Position numbers and translations under genes: made by a program. A stretch of DNA of 5,487 nucleotides from the IMG/VR virus record IMGVR_UViG_3300029521_000124; one strand, written 5' to 3'. Positions 1 to 5,487 of the stretch are shown here, in pieces; the stretch's first letter is position 1; the number at the start of each line of letters is the position of its first letter. The notes beneath the pieces are model-generated. The model was not told the DNA's origin. It saw only the letters and a program-made list of their open reading frames with translations, and made no database searches. The DNA is from a virus (lineage: Duplodnaviria; Heunggongvirae; Uroviricota; Caudoviricetes).

Positions 1-70
1 AAAAACTAGTATTAAGACTATCACTTAAATAAGTGATATTGGTTGTCTGGAGATTCAGGGGGCCAGTCTA
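1..70 (-). mobile_element. Terminal ~70 bp of an IS2-like (IS3 family) insertion sequence; outer terminus at 70, body of the element lies beyond the left edge of the window
   Basis: Reverse complement of 1-70 reads TAGACTGGCCCCCTGAATCTCCAGACAACCAATATCACTTATTTAAGTGATAGTCTTAATACTAGTTTTT, which matches my memory of the IS2 left terminal region upstream of its first transposase ORF. Recalled, not searched. Confidence 0.75.
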
Positions 71-391
71 GTCTAAAGGTTCATCGTAAAACATTCCCCA
101 TACTTATCAGTCCGTTCCGCGCCAGGTAGCTCATTGCCTTATCTGGCAACCTGTAATCAGGTTTCCGCTTTTTCAGTTGGCTGGTCGTTTAACCGACATA
201 GTTAATCCATTAATCTAGTTGCCGGATGTTGGTGGATTTTCGCGTTTTAGTTGTTCATAAAAGTGCACAGCTTTAACCAGTTCTTCTGATGTAACTGGGA
301 CTGGTGAGGCAGTGAATAAGGCCTGAATTTGATAGTTCGGCCTGTCGTTACAATCCTCTTTTTTCGGTACATATTTCCAGTCACCAGACCA

Positions 392-502
392 CTACTTCCC
401 CTGAAAGTCCGTAACGCCTTTTTTCACGTAGCGATATCGCCATGCCACTGGTTTTGCTTGCCCCGCCGTTTCATGCCCTTCCTGATAATTAATCTCGCTC
501 AT
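392..502 (-). CDS. Small hypothetical ORF, 36 aa (MSEINYQEGHETAGQAKPVAWRYRYVKKGVTDFQGK), ending at a TAG (392-394); the same frame stays open for 58 more codons to a TAG at 215-217, so this may be the 5' part of an amber-interrupted ~95-codon gene
   Basis: ATG at 502 on minus strand with weak G-rich stretch upstream; charged, protein-like composition. Below the size cutoff of the supplied ORF track; translated by hand. Confidence 0.25.
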   Translation of the reverse strand: MSEINYQEGHETAGQAKPVAWRYRYVKKGVTDFQGK

Positions 503-564
503 TCATCGCCCCACTCATCACAATATGCTTCGACCGGAGTTTTTCCCGCTTCATAGTCATCACG

Positions 565-690
565 CTAGGATTCGACATCAGCAGCACTTCCACCGCGTAA
601 CTCACCATAGTCCATTAATAGTTCATCCCGCTCTTCAAAACTGATGTTATATTTAGCTGAACAAAAATCAGCCACTTTGTTCTTCCTCAT
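565..690 (-). CDS. Small hypothetical ORF, 41 aa (MRKNKVADFCSAKYNISFEERDELLMDYGELRGGSAADVES)
   Basis: ATG at 690, TAG at 565-567, translated by hand; weak ribosome-binding site; acidic small protein typical of phage nin-region-like genes. Could be chance. Confidence 0.25.
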   Translation of the reverse strand: MRKNKVADFCSAKYNISFEERDELLMDYGELRGGSAADVES

Positions 691-739
691 CGTCTTTTAT
701 TTCGTGGTATGAGTAATTGCAGTAGTTAAAGAAAATTTC

Positions 740-850
740 TTATGCTCCGTCATGAATTTCCTCAGGTGTTGCGTCATCGTCCACTTCGAATACATCCTCA
801 AAATCTCCACCAGCTATTCCCGTTTCAATAATAATTTTGAACTTTCGCAT
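740..850 (-). CDS. Small hypothetical ORF, 36 aa (MRKFKIIIETGIAGGDFEDVFEVDDDATPEEIHDGA)
   Basis: ATG at 850, TAA at 740-742; first start in a frame open from 916; preceded by a GC hairpin (858-873) and an AGGAGG at 874-879 (minus sense). Shares the MRK.K N-terminus with the ORF at 565-690. Could be chance. Confidence 0.25.
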   Translation of the reverse strand: MRKFKIIIETGIAGGDFEDVFEVDDDATPEEIHDGA

Positions 851-982
851 TTCACTACCGCCCTTTCGGGCGGCCTCCTGATGTTCTGAGGGTGCAGAAA
901 TCCATCCGGTTAAGGATTAAATTTTATTTACAGAACTGAATTTAATTATTCAGATATACGTATCTGTAGCCTTACGAATCTA

Positions 983-1034
983 CTCACTGGATGCCTCTTT
1001 CATAAAAATAATCCAGTGGGTTTTATCGTTTTTT
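983..1034 (+). terminator. Candidate plus-strand intrinsic terminator: 10-bp stem (983-992 / 1011-1020, one G-U pair) with an 18-nt loop, followed by TTTTATCGTTTTTT (1021-1034)
   Basis: Inverted repeat CTCACTGGAT / ATCCAGTGGG followed by a T-run only on the plus strand. The loop is long, so this is weak; no plus-strand gene is evident upstream. Confidence 0.3.
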
Positions 1035-1112
1035 CCCTGTTCGTTGACAGATAACAGGTTTTCTGTCTGTCAGTGCCAGAATCTGGCTTACCGGTATTTG
1101 CGTTTCATTCCA

Positions 1113-1469
1113 TTAAAAAATCAGAACGCCGTGCGGCCTCAACACCCGAAAGGCTTCTTTAAATCTCTGTCGCGAATCATCACGCCAGGCATCTTTATTC
1201 AGCCGTCCATATTTCTTTCCCATCCAGGCGTTATCACCAACACTCTCAAGATGCGGAGGGTCTAATACAACCATCGAAAAAGATGCGTCTGCAAATGATA
1301 ATGCACGAAAATCTGCGATAATGTCAGGGCTGATAATCAAGCGTCTCCCATTGCGTAATGTGTATCCTTCTTTTCTGATATCGCTGAATATCGCCCGTTC
1401 GTCAGACTTATCGAACCAGAACATGCGGCTGCCACAGCACATATCAAGAATGGTTGCCGGTGCACTCAC
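1113..1469 (-). pseudogene. C-terminally truncated DNA amino-methyltransferase (N6-adenine/N4-cytosine type) fragment, 118 codons; resembles short prophage methyltransferase remnants such as K-12 YfdM
   Basis: Motif I-like LDMCCGSRMF near the N-terminus and motif IV-like VVLDPPH about 57 aa later (gamma-class order), then the ORF stops about 45 aa after DPPH with no target-recognition region. GTG start at 1469 overlaps the upstream gene's stop as GTGA. Sequence left of 1113 is AT-rich and unrelated. Confidence 0.55.
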
Positions 1470-1888
1470 TGCGCCACGTCCTGAAAATTACCCTGATAGA
1501 AAGCCAGTATGCGCTGCATAACTTCGCTCTTCCGGCACTCGCGACAGATTATGTTTAGGCGACTGTCGTAGCGACGTATTTCTCCGTCAGGTGATGACCA
1601 GATAAGGTCCGGATCAACCACAGCAGGTTTCTTCACCTTTGCCCTCGAGAGTTTTTTGCGGGCGTTTTGCCAGTCCTTACGCGCCTGTTCAGAGGGGAAT
1701 AACCCGTAGCCGGAGTTGTATACATCGCCACTGGCTACCAGCTCTCTGGCAAGAACGCTCATCAGATATCTAGTCGCACCTGTTTTAGCTTCCAGTTGCC
1801 GTAACGTCTCACGGCCGCTCTGGCGCACGAGTTCCACCACCTGCCATTTAATTTTTTCCCGCTCTTCTTGTGTAAAAACTTTTGCCAC
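1466..1888 (-). CDS. Hypothetical prophage early protein, 140 aa, unknown function
   Basis: GTG start at 1888 preceded by AAGGGGGA 4 nt upstream (minus sense); stop overlaps the methyltransferase start. No Walker A motif; a possible helix-turn-helix-like stretch (TLRQLEAKTGATRYLMSVLAREL) and a CRECRK element. Position matches the gene after the replication initiator in the CPS-53-type arrangement (from memory). Confidence 0.65.
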   Translation of the reverse strand: MAKVFTQEEREKIKWQVVELVRQSGRETLRQLEAKTGATRYLMSVLARELVASGDVYNSGYGLFPSEQARKDWQNARKKLSRAKVKKPAVVDPDLIWSSPDGEIRRYDSRLNIICRECRKSEVMQRILAFYQGNFQDVAQ

Positions 1889-1928
1889 AAGTCCCCCTTA
1901 AAATTACCTCATGACCTGAAATCAACAC

Positions 1929-2894
1929 TTATCCTCTGAAACCAGGCGGAATTTCTGTATCCGGTTCAGAAATATGATTAACACAACGCTGTACAGGTGA
2001 ACGTCCCAGGCGGATGACCAGTTCGTCCCATTTTTCGCGGAGCTTTGACGGGCTCATGATGTTTTTTACCCAGAATGGATCTCGCTGAACCCGACCAAAC
2101 ATTTCGCAAATTTGTCTGTGGCTTCTGCCATCCAGCATCCGCATTGTGCGCACGTCATTGGCCCAGGCAGTCCAGTTAGGCTCTTTTGGTCGCATGATCT
2201 CGCCATCATCACTGGCTGCCTGTTCGTAGAGACCCACGATCCGCCCCCAGATCCACTGCGCACACGCCAAATCCTCCCTGCTACCCCACTGGCGTTTTTT
2301 CGCACTAAACACAACCGCGTCGGAGTTCCGGGTTAAAAAATCCTGTTCAGTCGTCTGCGGGTCCGGTTGCGAAGCTTCCGGACGAAAAGTGTTTTTATTC
2401 TCTGTAGTAATCTCTGTTGTATTCTCTGTAAGATCATCAGGCCATTTTGACCCGATGACATTGGGTCGTTTTGAACCAATGGAGCGTTTCATTTTGACCT
2501 CTTCCATCGTGTCATTTTGACCTGATGGAGCGGCGCATTTTGAACCGATGGATTCGCTCAATTTGCCACCATCTAAAAGCTCGCTCCCATAGTTGATCGT
2601 GTAGAAATTGGTCATATCGCGCTTTGATTTATTGAGCTTTTCACAACGCAAAAGCCCCAGCGTTTTCAGACTTGCAAACGCGCGCTTTAACGTTGACTCT
2701 GACCAGAATGGGAACTGTTCCAGCCATTGTTCCGTTGTGTTATAAATCCAGCGAACACCATCACATTCCATGCCGGAGTTGGTATCTCTCAACCAGTAGT
2801 GCAGTTGTTGCAAAACAATGGCTTCGTTTAAGCCAATTTTCATTGCCAGCTGCGTGTTTATAACCAGTGGGCGTTCAGCAAAAAGAAGGCTCAT
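1929..2894 (-). CDS. Phage replication initiation protein (lambda O-like replisome organiser) with the origin embedded in its coding sequence
   Basis: The ORF track gives 1929-2948 with a TTG start; I prefer the ATG at 2894 (MSLLFAERPLVINTQ..., GGATGG 5 nt upstream), and an ATG at 2843 is also possible. N-terminal winged-helix-like region (LNEAIVLQQLHYWL...STLKRAFASLKTLGLL); central low-complexity linker with repeated SIGSK/IGSK peptides encoded by the iterons. Confidence 0.8.
   Translation of the reverse strand: MSLLFAERPLVINTQLAMKIGLNEAIVLQQLHYWLRDTNSGMECDGVRWIYNTTEQWLEQFPFWSESTLKRAFASLKTLGLLRCEKLNKSKRDMTNFYTINYGSELLDGGKLSESIGSKCAAPSGQNDTMEEVKMKRSIGSKRPNVIGSKWPDDLTENTTEITTENKNTFRPEASQPDPQTTEQDFLTRNSDAVVFSAKKRQWGSREDLACAQWIWGRIVGLYEQAASDDGEIMRPKEPNWTAWANDVRTMRMLDGRSHRQICEMFGRVQRDPFWVKNIMSPSKLREKWDELVIRLGRSPVQRCVNHISEPDTEIPPGFRG
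2386..2432. repeat. AT-rich segment with three TCTCTGT(A/T) repeats at exactly 12-bp spacing (2399, 2411, 2423); candidate DNA-unwinding element of the prophage origin
   Basis: Directly visible; lies immediately next to the iteron array inside the initiator gene, the same layout as lambda ori within O. Confidence 0.5.
2443..2551. repeat. Iteron array: five direct repeats of about 15 bp, consensus ATTTTGA(A/C)C(C/N)GATGG, spaced 22-25 bp (starts near 2444, 2468, 2491, 2514, 2537); candidate ori iterons bound by the initiator
   Basis: Repeats read directly from the sequence; they sit in frame inside the replication initiator gene. Confidence 0.6.
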
Positions 2895-3396
2895 AATTCC
2901 ATCCAGCTTTTTGTTGGTATTGCTGTCGATACGCAAGTTTGAAAGCAATTGCTTTTTCTATAAGTTCGTCAGTTTCACGATCCACTACGGCAGGATCAGC
3001 AAAAAGCAGTCCGGACTCCACCACATCGCCATATTCTTTGTTTAACCCGGCGATCATGCACGTGATGCTTTTTCCGTCAGTAATTTCACGATACAACCTG
3101 AAATCATTAATCCGGATAGCCTCCATAATTGCAGGCACTAGCGCCGTGAACTTTTCACGCTTATCCCTGGTGTCGATAGCCTTCCAGCGTTCAAATATCT
3201 TCACTCGATTAACGCCAAGCGCTCGCTGATCAATCGCGCCACCTTCATATGTGACACGCTGAACATCGATGTTCGGGCGCTCTTTCAAAGCCCAGAATGC
3301 TTCAGTGATTAATATCGTCGCCTGCTCCTGTGTCATTCCTGGTCGACATATCCAGGCATCCAGAGCCTCACGAGCCTGTTCAGGAGTGATTTTCAT
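2875..3396 (-). CDS. Hypothetical prophage early protein, 173 aa, between the cro-like gene and the replication initiator; possibly a CII-like/YdaT-like regulator (speculative)
   Basis: ATG at 3396 overlaps the dicC 3' end by 17 nt; its stop at 2875-2877 overlaps the preferred initiator start by 20 nt. No recognisable catalytic motif or Walker A. Function assigned only from position. Confidence 0.6.
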   Translation of the reverse strand: MKITPEQAREALDAWICRPGMTQEQATILITEAFWALKERPNIDVQRVTYEGGAIDQRALGVNRVKIFERWKAIDTRDKREKFTALVPAIMEAIRINDFRLYREITDGKSITCMIAGLNKEYGDVVESGLLFADPAVVDRETDELIEKAIAFKLAYRQQYQQKAGWNYEPSFC

Positions 3397-3610
3397 TGTT
3401 CAACCGCCCCGCCCGCTTCGTCTTACGATATTCATCATAAACTTTGGGATCATACTGAAGCTCCCCGCCAGATGCCTCCTGTAGACGCATCGCGCGACCT
3501 TCGGGAACTAAATCCCCTTTCCAGCTATAAAGCGAAGCCAAACGAATACCTGCTGCTTGTGCAAGTTTTGTTTTTGAACCGAAATACAAAAGAGCGTCAG
3601 TTTTAAGCAT
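3380..3610 (-). CDS. dicC: Cro-like HTH regulator DicC, 76 aa
   Basis: Protein MLKTDALLYFGSKTKLAQAAGIRLASLYSWKGDLVPEGRAMRLQEASGG... matches my memory of E. coli DicC. ATG at 3610 with AAGGTG 6-7 nt upstream; divergent from dicA. Confidence 0.88.
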   Translation of the reverse strand: MLKTDALLYFGSKTKLAQAAGIRLASLYSWKGDLVPEGRAMRLQEASGGELQYDPKVYDEYRKTKRAGRLNNENHS

Positions 3611-3693
3611 TTAAAACACCTTTATTGTTAGTCATAACTAACAAGATAGATGTTAACAAAAACATAGTCAATACGATTTAGCATTAGCTAACT
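3611..3693. promoter_or_regulatory. Divergent dicC/dicA promoter-operator region
   Basis: 83-bp AT-rich spacer between divergent start codons. Near-palindrome TTGTTAGTCATAACTAACAA at 3625-3644; candidate minus-strand promoter with -35 TTGACT (3671-3666) and -10 TATCTT (3648-3643) overlapping that palindrome; TTAGCTAA palindrome at 3684-3691 just before the dicA ATG, which has no obvious SD. Confidence 0.6.
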
Positions 3694-4101
3694 ATGGAAA
3701 CAAAAAATTTAACTATCGGCGAACGCATCAGGTATCGTCGGAAAAACCTCAAACACACCCAAAGGTCTCTTGCTAAAGCCCTGAAAATCTCCCATGTGTC
3801 TGTATCACAATGGGAACGGGGTGATAGTGAACCTACAGGGAAGAACCTTTTTGCCCTCAGCAAAGTATTGCAATGCTCACCAACATGGATTCTATTTGGC
3901 GATGAAGACAAGCAACCAACACCACCTGTTGAGAAGCCAGTTGCCTTATCCCCCAAAGAACTAGAGCTCCTTGAGCTGTTTAATGCACTGCCAGAATCAG
4001 AACAGGATACCCAGCTCGCCGAAATGCGAGCTCGAGTAAAAAACTTCAATAAACTCTTTGAAGAATTACTAAAAGCCCGTCAGCGGACAAATAAAAGATA
4101 A
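3694..4101 (+). CDS. dicA: XRE-family HTH repressor DicA (CI-like, no peptidase domain), 135 aa
   Basis: Protein METKNLTIGERIRYRRKNLKHTQRSLAKALKISHVSVSQWERGDSEPTGKNLFALSKVL... matches my memory of E. coli DicA; N-terminal HTH; divergent from the cro-like gene. Confidence 0.88.
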   Translation: METKNLTIGERIRYRRKNLKHTQRSLAKALKISHVSVSQWERGDSEPTGKNLFALSKVLQCSPTWILFGDEDKQPTPPVEKPVALSPKELELLELFNALPESEQDTQLAEMRARVKNFNKLFEELLKARQRTNKR

Positions 4102-4161
4102 CATCATCAATGAGTTATCTTTTACCACATCAATTGTGTTAGCTATAGCATACAAAATCAC

Positions 4162-4190
4162 TTGACCGATATGTTAGTCATGGCTAATCT
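4162..4190 (+). promoter_or_regulatory. Candidate sigma-70 promoter for the ydfA operon with an overlapping DicA operator-like site
   Basis: -35 TTGACC (4162-4167), 17-bp spacer, -10 TAATCT (4185-4190). The spacer/-10 contains TGTTAGTCATGGCTAA (4172-4187), sharing the 10-mer TGTTAGTCAT with the palindrome at 3625-3644. In K-12 the dicB operon promoter is DicA-repressed. Confidence 0.45.
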
Positions 4191-4267
4191 TGTTTGCATC
4201 AACACACCGCACGGTGTTCTCAGCAAACAGTTCCGCTACCCCAGCGTTAAGGGGAAATGAGGTCAGC

Positions 4268-4423
4268 ATGGATACTATCGATCTTGGCAACAACGAATCT
4301 CTGGTGTACGGCGTGTTTCCAAACCAGGACGGCACGTTCACCGCAATGACGTATACCAAAAGCAAAACGTTTAAAACCGAAAATGGTGCCCGTCGCTGGC
4401 TGGAAAGAAACTCAGGTGAGTGA
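4268..4423 (+). CDS. ydfA: YdfA-like small protein, 51 aa (MDTIDLGNNESLVYGVFPNQDGTFTAMTYTKSKTFKTENGARRWLERNSGE)
   Basis: ATG at 4268 with GAGG 5 nt upstream; the track ORF 4190-4423 is the same frame with a spurious N-terminal extension. Matches my memory of Qin prophage YdfA. Confidence 0.85.
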   Translation: MDTIDLGNNESLVYGVFPNQDGTFTAMTYTKSKTFKTENGARRWLERNSGE

Positions 4424-4424
4424 T

Positions 4425-4553
4425 ATGGATTTCGACACAATCATGGAAAAGGCTTACGAAGAATACTTCGAAGGCCTTGCCGAAGGCGAAGAAGCTCTCA
4501 GCTTCAGTGAGTTTAAACAGGCGCTTTCCAGTTCGGCAAAATCTAACGGCTGA
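4425..4553 (+). CDS. ydfB: YdfB-like small acidic protein, 42 aa (MDFDTIMEKAYEEYFEGLAEGEEALSFSEFKQALSSSAKSNG)
   Basis: Below the ORF-track cutoff; translated by hand. ATG at 4425 one nt after the ydfA stop (TGAtATG), AGGTGA upstream. Matches my memory of YdfB. Confidence 0.8.
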   Translation: MDFDTIMEKAYEEYFEGLAEGEEALSFSEFKQALSSSAKSNG

Positions 4554-4582
4554 TAAGCGAAACAGCACCGCGAGGAATCAGT

Positions 4583-4801
4583 ATGCAGAAACGAGAACCC
4601 GTCATCATCGCGCCAGACTATACCGATGATGAACTTTATGAGTGGATACACCAGAAAATTAAGGCTGCGCAGGACCTGAAATGGGCCAATGAAGCCAGGG
4701 CTAAGCAGGCTGAAAATCTGTCCGCTCTGGAGCAGGATATCACCAGGCTGGAAAAAGCAGCGGCATTAAGCATTGCCAGAATGATTACATACCCGCGTTA
4801 A
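4583..4801 (+). CDS. ydfC: YdfC-like protein, 72 aa
   Basis: ATG at 4583 with GAGG upstream; protein MQKREPVIIAPDYTDDELYEWIHQKIKAAQDLKW... matches my memory of YdfC. Confidence 0.85.
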   Translation: MQKREPVIIAPDYTDDELYEWIHQKIKAAQDLKWANEARAKQAENLSALEQDITRLEKAAALSIARMITYPR

Positions 4802-4823
4802 TAGCTAACCAACGAGGCTAATA

Positions 4824-5198
4824 ATGGAATTTAAAGATTTACCAATGCCATTCCAGGAAATGGCAGCGAATGTGGTTCGCTCTCAACTGGCGACTCTTGA
4901 CCTGAGTACCGTAGAAAAAGAAACCATCGACAATATATCCGGTAACGTACGCCGAGCCTTTATCGGGCTGTACGAAGAGAAGCAGCTCTCTGATAACCAG
5001 GATTTACATGAAAAATACTTTCTGGAATTAATGGACATCATTAATAAAGGATTTGGCTTGTTAATGAAAAAGAAAGGGATTCGAATAGCTCCCCTTGAAA
5101 ATCATTTTACAGCAAGCAGTATTAATTCCTGTGATTTAAAGCATCACACATCCGATGGGAAAGTTGAATCAAACAACAAAATATCAATTAATCATTAA
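4824..5198 (+). CDS. Hypothetical protein, 124 aa, unrecognised; last gene of the DicA-controlled plus-strand operon within the window
   Basis: ATG at 4824 with GAGG 6 nt upstream, 22 nt after the ydfC stop. No motif I recognise. The 3' third (from about 5040) is markedly AT-rich compared with the 5' part. Confidence 0.6.
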   Translation: MEFKDLPMPFQEMAANVVRSQLATLDLSTVEKETIDNISGNVRRAFIGLYEEKQLSDNQDLHEKYFLELMDIINKGFGLLMKKKGIRIAPLENHFTASSINSCDLKHHTSDGKVESNNKISINH

Positions 5199-5219
5199 TT
5201 TATTCACAGGTGAGGTAGA

Positions 5220-5487
5220 GTGCGTGCGCCGGACACGGATAAGAATCCGGCACTGACAGTTTACTGAAAGGATATTTCCATGAAAAGTCAGACCATAACG
5301 CGAAAGCGCACGGCGAGGTAGCTGGTTCATAGATAGCCTGTCGTTAAATTTTCGTCGACCGTGCGCTTCCGGTTGTGACACTCCGCGAAATGGCGCGGCG
5401 GTAAGTATGACGGGGTTATTCCTTCCCCGTTGAGGACACCGGGTTGTCAGGTTGACCATACGCTTAAGTGACAACCCCGCTGCAACG
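5220..5487. other. GC-rich, inverted-repeat-dense segment of unresolved nature (structured RNA or mobile-element end, or the 3' end of a convergent gene that starts beyond the window)
   Basis: Tandem GTGCG at 5220-5228; hairpin 5228-5233/5246-5251; perfect 10-bp inverted repeat 5304-5313/5359-5368 (45-nt loop); hairpin 5410-5415/5425-5430; perfect 9-bp inverted repeat 5441-5449/5469-5477. No plus-strand ORF; one minus-strand frame is open to the window edge. Confidence 0.3.

What the first reader, a model, noticed from the sequence alone, without database searches (positions are those of the whole stretch)
4131..4190. Operator 10-mer TGTTAGTCAT repeated inside the candidate promoter of the ydfA operon
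The exact 10-mer TGTTAGTCAT from the dicC/dicA operator (3626-3635) recurs at 4172-4181, within the 17-bp spacer of a good candidate promoter (TTGACC-17-TAATCT, 4162-4190). A related TGTTAGCTATAGCA lies at 4137-4150. This fits DicA repressing the downstream cargo operon by promoter occlusion, so the 124-aa gene would be silent in the lysogen.
Basis: partly seen in the sequence, partly recalled or inferred. Interest (0 to 1): 0.4.

Follow-up and report, generated by a model that had tools for sequence, protein, structure and literature searches.

The report
Known DicA operator at dicB promoter
The repeated 10-mer is real and is the repressor-binding site inside the already described DicA-controlled promoter (dicBp) of the E. 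coli Qin prophage, so the finding is correct but ordinary.

Summary
TGTTAGTCAT occurs exactly twice (3626 and 4172). The second copy lies in the 17-bp spacer of TTGACC-17-TAATCT. The related TGTTAGCTATAGCA is at 4137-4150. Window 3117-4821 is 99.2% identical to the dicC-dicA-ydfABC region of the K-12 Qin prophage, and the dicA-ydfA spacer differs from K-12 by one base. The promoter is therefore dicBp, which the literature describes as DicA-repressed with predicted operators overlapping it. A fragment equal to window 4102-4214 fused to lacZ is derepressed 22-fold when dicA is deleted. New support here comes from heteroimmune relatives that share the ydfA leader but carry different repressors. 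In the six repressor types examined, the dyad found between the cro-like and repressor genes recurs in the spacer/-10 of the promoter upstream of ydfA. In five of those types (the sixth was not examined for it), a second copy lies just upstream of the -35. Direct DicA binding at these exact bases has not been mapped. Co-transcription of the 124-aa gene is inferred. Verdict: already known, low interest.

The parts
3380..3610 (-). dicC, the Cro-like regulator (76 aa)
   Evidence: Pfam P22_Cro E=1.7e-11. Aligns with K-12 dicC.
3625..3644 (.). Oc operator TTGTTAGTCATAACTAACAA; holds the first copy of the 10-mer
   Evidence: Identical to the Oc sequence shown to be bound by DicA in vivo, where one A-to-C change abolishes binding (PMC3441716). 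Identical to K-12.
3676..3693 (.). Oa-like site with the core TTAGCATTAGCTAA, next to the dicA start
   Evidence: One of three TTAG-N6-CTAA hits. Yun et al. report no DicA binding to Oa or Om in their assay.
3694..4101 (+). dicA, the CI/C2-like repressor (135 aa)
   Evidence: Pfam HTH_3 E=1.3e-16 and Phage_CI_repr E=7.5e-6. Aligns with K-12 dicA.
4092..4124 (+). Hairpin across the dicA stop codon; probable dicA terminator that shields dicBp from read-through
   Evidence: 11-bp perfect inverted repeat. RNA fold -12 kcal/mol, z = -5.2. Compensatory stem changes in variants. The function is inferred.
4136..4155 (.). Upstream operator-like dyad GTGTTAGCTATAGCATACAA, just 5' of the -35
   Evidence: 2 mismatches to TGTTAG-N6-CTAACA. 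TGTTAG and ACAAAA are invariant in 17 distinct DicA-type sequences. An equivalent site is present in five repressor types, A-D and Rac.
4162..4167 (+). -35 hexamer TTGACC of dicBp
   Evidence: CTTGACC is invariant in 17 DicA-type variants. TTGAC(C/G/A/T) or TTGCCT sits at the same place in the other repressor types.
4171..4190 (.). Promoter-proximal operator ATGTTAGTCATGGCTAATCT covering the spacer and -10; holds the second copy of the 10-mer
   Evidence: Exact 10-mer. TTAG-N6-CTAA core at 4174-4187. Half-sites are invariant and the centre is variable. The motif changes together with the repressor type.
4185..4190 (+). -10 hexamer TAATCT of dicBp; overlaps the right operator half
   Evidence: Read from the sequence. 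TAATAT, TAAATT or TATAGT is at the same position in relatives.
4197..4267 (+). Predicted transcript start (about 4197-4198) and the conserved ydfA leader
   Evidence: Homology among heteroimmune loci begins at CATCAA, 5-6 nt after the -10. The start site is inferred and was not mapped here.
4268..4801 (+). ydfA (4268-4423), ydfB (4425-4553) and ydfC (4583-4801)
   Evidence: Coordinates transferred from the K-12 annotation. ydfA matches DUF1391, E=1.7e-28.
4824..5198 (+). 124-aa ORF inserted between ydfC and the dicF precursor region; absent from K-12
   Evidence: phrog_6937, unknown function, E=5.7e-78. No K-12 match for 4822-5204. A 97%-identical copy is in L005. The same arrangement occurs in 337 E. 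coli genomes.
5205..5487 (+). Region homologous to K-12 sequence just upstream of dicF
   Evidence: 95.4% identical to L001 3585-3867; K-12 dicF starts at L001 3883.

Best explanation
Window 4136-4198 is dicBp, the PL-like early promoter of a Qin-type cryptic prophage, together with its operators. A DicA dimer bound to the dyad at 4171-4190 covers the spacer and the -10 hexamer and keeps RNA polymerase off the promoter. A second, weaker dyad at 4136-4155 abuts the -35 hexamer, 35 bp centre to centre from the first. The operon ydfA-ydfB-ydfC-(124-aa gene)-dicF-dicB therefore stays off while DicA is present. The Cro-like DicC probably uses the same sites. Shown by others in K-12: DicA-dependent repression of this fragment. 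Shown here: sequence identity with K-12, non-random placement of the sites, and covariation with repressor type. Inferred: the exact bases contacted, the occlusion mechanism, the transcript start and co-transcription of the 124-aa gene.
For: The locus is 99.2% identical to K-12 Qin, and the dicA-ydfA spacer differs by one base in 181. Oc is identical to the experimentally bound operator. [quoted passage not shown] DicC ChIP-seq infers one site on either side of dicA. TTAG-N6-CTAA gives 3 hits against 0.07 expected, all flanking dicA. In six repressor types (four DicA-like types, RacR and a LexA-family type), the dyad of the cro/repressor spacer recurs in the spacer/-10 of the promoter upstream of ydfA. 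Matched repressor types share longer words (8.8-13.6 nt) than mismatched types (6.7-9.2 nt; highest for A with B, which share the TGTTAG half-site). In 17 distinct DicA-type sequences the half-sites, -35 and -10 are invariant while the operator centre and the linker vary.
Against: No direct binding of DicA to these bases is reported in the papers I could read. PMC7567609 calls the dicB site low-evidence with unknown location. DicA did not bind the operator-like sites Om and Oa in vivo, so resemblance to Oc does not guarantee binding. The right half of the 4171-4190 site departs from Oc (CTAATC instead of CTAACA). The -10 hexamer matches the consensus at only 3 of 6 positions and was not called by the scan. 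The original operator assignment (Bejar et al. 1988) could not be read.
Confidence: 0.88

Rival explanations
1. The sites are mainly DicC (Cro-like) operators, and DicA represses dicBp only indirectly or from elsewhere.
For: DicC ChIP-seq infers binding on both sides of dicA, with a palindromic TT(A/C/T)G...C(G/A/T)AA motif that fits TTAG-N6-CTAA. Direct DicA binding at dicBp is unmapped.
Against: Deleting dicA derepresses the isolated fragment 22-fold, whereas deleting dicC has no effect. DicA binds the Oc sequence that shares the 10-mer. In lambdoid switches the two proteins share operators, so this reading adds to the main one rather than replacing it.
Confidence: 0.06
2. The 10-mer recurrence is a chance repeat with no function.
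For: Exact 10-mer pairs are common in the window: 34 observed against about 19 expected.
Against: The expected count in this spacer is 5e-4. The dyad core is enriched about 40-fold and confined to the dicA flanks. The motif covaries with repressor type in six types.
Confidence: 0.01
3. A host factor such as YjdC (DicD) or H-NS, rather than DicA, silences the promoter through these AT-rich sequences.
For: YjdC occupies the dic locus and lowers dicA and dicB transcripts when overexpressed. H-NS with CnuK9E modulates the switch.
Against: dic transcripts are not significantly changed in a yjdC mutant. dicA deletion alone gives full derepression, with 100% promoter-on colonies. The dyad covaries with the phage repressor, not with any host factor.
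Confidence: 0.05

Closest known systems
[quoted passage not shown]
   Same: Essentially the same sequence: one base differs in 181. Oc is identical. The gene order dicC-dicA-ydfABC is the same.
   Different: This copy carries an extra 124-aa gene between ydfC and dicF. It also has different genes upstream of position 3117, including a YdaT-family 173-aa protein and a DUF977 protein.
Lambda OL/PL and P22 OL/PL controlled by CI/C2 and Cro
   Same: A repressor gene sits between two operator-bearing promoters. The same dyad occurs at both promoters. An operator overlaps the -10/spacer. A Cro-like partner is present. The comparison is made in the literature.
   Different: DicA is short (135 aa) and lacks the RecA cleavage site; it is relieved by the antirepressor Rem. 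Only two clear dyads are seen here, 35 bp apart. The lambda spacing of about 24 bp is from my own knowledge.
Rac prophage RacR with the ydaS/racR spacer and the promoter upstream of ydaF
   Same: The architecture is the same. TTAGGC-N3/4-GCCTA-type dyads occur in both spacers, one of them within TTGACA-17-TATAGT (L006). The ydfA/ydaF leader is conserved.
   Different: The repressor and the operator sequence are different.

Membership tests
Lambdoid immunity region, PL/OL-type operator-promoter (Qin dicBp) | CI/C2-type HTH repressor gene next to a divergent Cro-like gene | tested here: met
   HTH_3 and Phage_CI_repr for the 135-aa protein; P22_Cro for the 76-aa protein.
Lambdoid immunity region, PL/OL-type operator-promoter (Qin dicBp) | The same operator dyad lies at the cro-side promoter and at a second promoter beyond the repressor gene, overlapping its core elements | tested here: met
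   with coordinates read.
Lambdoid immunity region, PL/OL-type operator-promoter (Qin dicBp) | Operators at both promoters change together with repressor specificity in heteroimmune relatives | tested here: met
   Six repressor types examined. Matched against mismatched word lengths.
Lambdoid immunity region, PL/OL-type operator-promoter (Qin dicBp) | Repressor-dependent repression of the promoter | not testable with these tools
   Published for K-12: 22-fold derepression of the fragment equal to window 4102-4214. That fragment differs from the window by one base.
Lambdoid immunity region, PL/OL-type operator-promoter (Qin dicBp) | Direct binding of the repressor to the promoter-proximal operator | not testable with these tools
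   Not reported in the papers read. The location is called unknown in PMC7567609. Oc binding is shown.
Orthologue of K-12 dicBp | Near-identity of sequence and synteny with K-12 Qin | tested here: met
   99.2% identity over 1705 bases; 180 of 181 bases in the spacer.

The most novel reading that the evidence does not exclude
DicA bound at Oc (centre 3634.5) and at the dicBp operators (centre 4180.5, 546 bp away, about 52 helical turns) might interact through a DNA loop that encloses dicA. This would couple dicA autoactivation to dicBp repression, as the lambda OL-OR loop does. Nothing here tests this idea. The oligomerisation capacity of the short DicA protein is unknown.
Probability: 0.1. Interest if true: 0.4.

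Novelty: already known. Interest (0 to 1): 0.1.

Why it matters
It matters little beyond annotation. The result confirms that this strain's copy of the toxic dicF/dicB early operon, and probably the extra 124-aa gene, sits under the known DicA switch. The useful addition is a base-level operator assignment for dicBp, supported by covariation across heteroimmune prophages. One 2020 paper (PMC7567609) describes that site as having an unknown location.

Tried and rejected
The consensus promoter scan did not call the promoter, because its -10 matches only 3 of 6 positions. An Rfam search of the window at E<=0.1 found nothing; the window ends 16 nt before dicF. Bejar 1986, Bejar 1988 and Cam 1988 are not held, so the original operator drawings could not be checked. 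The text of the ChIP-seq compendium paper does not mention DicA. I looked for a third dicBp operator, as the literature states, and found no convincing third dyad by eye or by the TGTTAG-N6-CTAACA scan with up to 3 mismatches. I considered using the published 'positions 813/814' RNase III site to back-calculate the transcript start. I dropped this because the origin of that numbering could not be verified.

Full report
**Observation.** The 10-mer TGTTAGTCAT occurs exactly twice in the window, at 3626-3635 and 4172-4181.
- By direct reading, TTGACC lies at 4162-4167 and TAATCT at 4185-4190, with a 17-nt spacer that contains the second copy.
- TGTTAGCTATAGCA lies at 4137-4150.
- Repeated 10-mers are common as such: 34 pairs in the window against about 19 expected.
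- This recurrence is different. Only 5e-4 copies are expected in the 166-bp dicA-ydfA spacer.
- The dyad core TTAG-N6-CTAA occurs three times against 0.07 expected, always next to dicA.
- The generic promoter scan missed this promoter because its -10 matches the consensus at 3 of 6 positions.

**Identity.** Window 3117-4821 is 99.2% identical to the K-12 Qin prophage region ydfX-dicC-dicA-ydfA-ydfB-ydfC.
- The dicC-dicA spacer is identical to K-12.
- The dicA-ydfA spacer differs by one base, G4136 instead of A.
- Window 3625-3644 is exactly the Oc operator TTGTTAGTCATAACTAACAA. DicA binds it in vivo, and one A-to-C change abolishes binding (PMC3441716).
- Pfam supports DicA as an HTH_3/CI-type repressor and DicC as P22 Cro-like.

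**What is already published.**
- Operators are said to lie in both spacers, and DicA is predicted to exclude RNA polymerase (PMC10448788).
- dicA deletion gives 22-fold derepression of that fragment, and dicC deletion has no effect. The antirepressor Rem induces the in-locus fusion 165-fold.
- Lowering DicA 10-fold raises dicB transcripts about 3,700-fold and also raises ydfA.
- DicC ChIP-seq infers one site on each side of dicA.
- The exact DicA site at dicBp was called low-evidence with unknown location in 2020.

**New support from comparison.** A scan for the conserved ydfA leader gave 120 viral contigs, and E. coli genomes gave further loci.
- These loci share the leader from CATCAA onward. 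They carry four DicA-like repressors with different recognition helices, plus RacR and a LexA-family repressor.
- In all six types, the dyad of the cro/repressor spacer recurs inside the spacer/-10 of a TTGAC-type promoter 5-6 nt upstream of the leader.
- In types A-D and Rac, a second copy lies just upstream of the -35. I did not look for it in the LexA-family locus.
- Examples are TGTTAG..CTAA, TTGAGTTTTCTCA, CTTAG..CTAA, TTAGGC..GCCTA and GGTAAC..GTTACC.
- Matched spacer pairs share longer words (means 10.7, 8.8, 9.9 and 13.6 nt) than mismatched pairs (6.7-9.2 nt). The highest mismatched value is A with B, which share TGTTAG.
- Among 17 distinct DicA-type sequences, TGTTAG, CAT, CTAAT and CTTGACC never vary. 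The operator centre and the -35-to-operator linker do vary.

**Mechanism.**
- A DicA dimer on 4171-4190 would cover roughly -27 to -8 of a transcript starting near 4197-4198 and block polymerase.
- The 4136-4155 dyad abuts the -35, 35 bp centre to centre from the first.
- The right half of the proximal site (CTAATC) departs from Oc (CTAACA), apparently because it doubles as the -10.
- These steps are inferred. DicA failed to bind Om and Oa, so binding strength at each dicBp dyad needs a direct test.

**The 124-aa gene.**
- It belongs to phrog_6937, of unknown function, and is absent from K-12.
- A 97%-identical copy lies directly after ydfA under a different repressor.
- The ydfC-124aa-dicF arrangement occurs in 337 E. 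coli genomes.
- Its silence under DicA follows from its position only.

**Verdict.** Novelty: already known. Interest: 0.1.

Noticed in passing
window 4092-4124: A perfect 11-bp inverted repeat spans the dicA stop codon (fold -12 kcal/mol, z = -5.2). Variants show compensatory stem changes (GCA/TGC, ACA/TGT). It is probably the dicA terminator that insulates dicBp from dicA read-through.
   Followed up: partly
window 4822-5204: A 124-aa gene (phrog_6937, unknown function) is inserted between ydfC and the dicF precursor region and is absent from K-12. GC falls to about 30% towards its 3' end. The same gene sits directly after ydfA in L005, so it behaves as a movable cassette.
   Followed up: partly
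window 4191-4200, and loci L002-L127: Homology between heteroimmune prophages starts almost exactly at the predicted transcript start (CATCAA). The immunity module, including the promoter and operators, is therefore exchanged as a unit ending at +1.
   Followed up: partly
L127 1220-1936: The identical ydfABC-124aa-dicB operon lies downstream of a 238-aa LexA-family (cleavable CI-like) repressor. Its GGTAAC-N4-GTTACC dyad sits in the promoter spacer, so the same operon is wired to SOS-type and antirepressor-type switches in different strains.
   Followed up: partly
window 2380-2560: CATTTTGACC-type words are repeated at 2443, 2490 and 2513 inside the 339-aa ORF on the minus strand. They are possibly iteron-like repeats of a replication-initiator gene (one search list).
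   Followed up: no
window 1-3116: Upstream of position 3117 the window departs from K-12 Qin. It encodes a YdaT-family 173-aa protein, an unassigned 339-aa protein, a DUF977 protein and a truncated-looking methyltransferase ORF.
   Followed up: no
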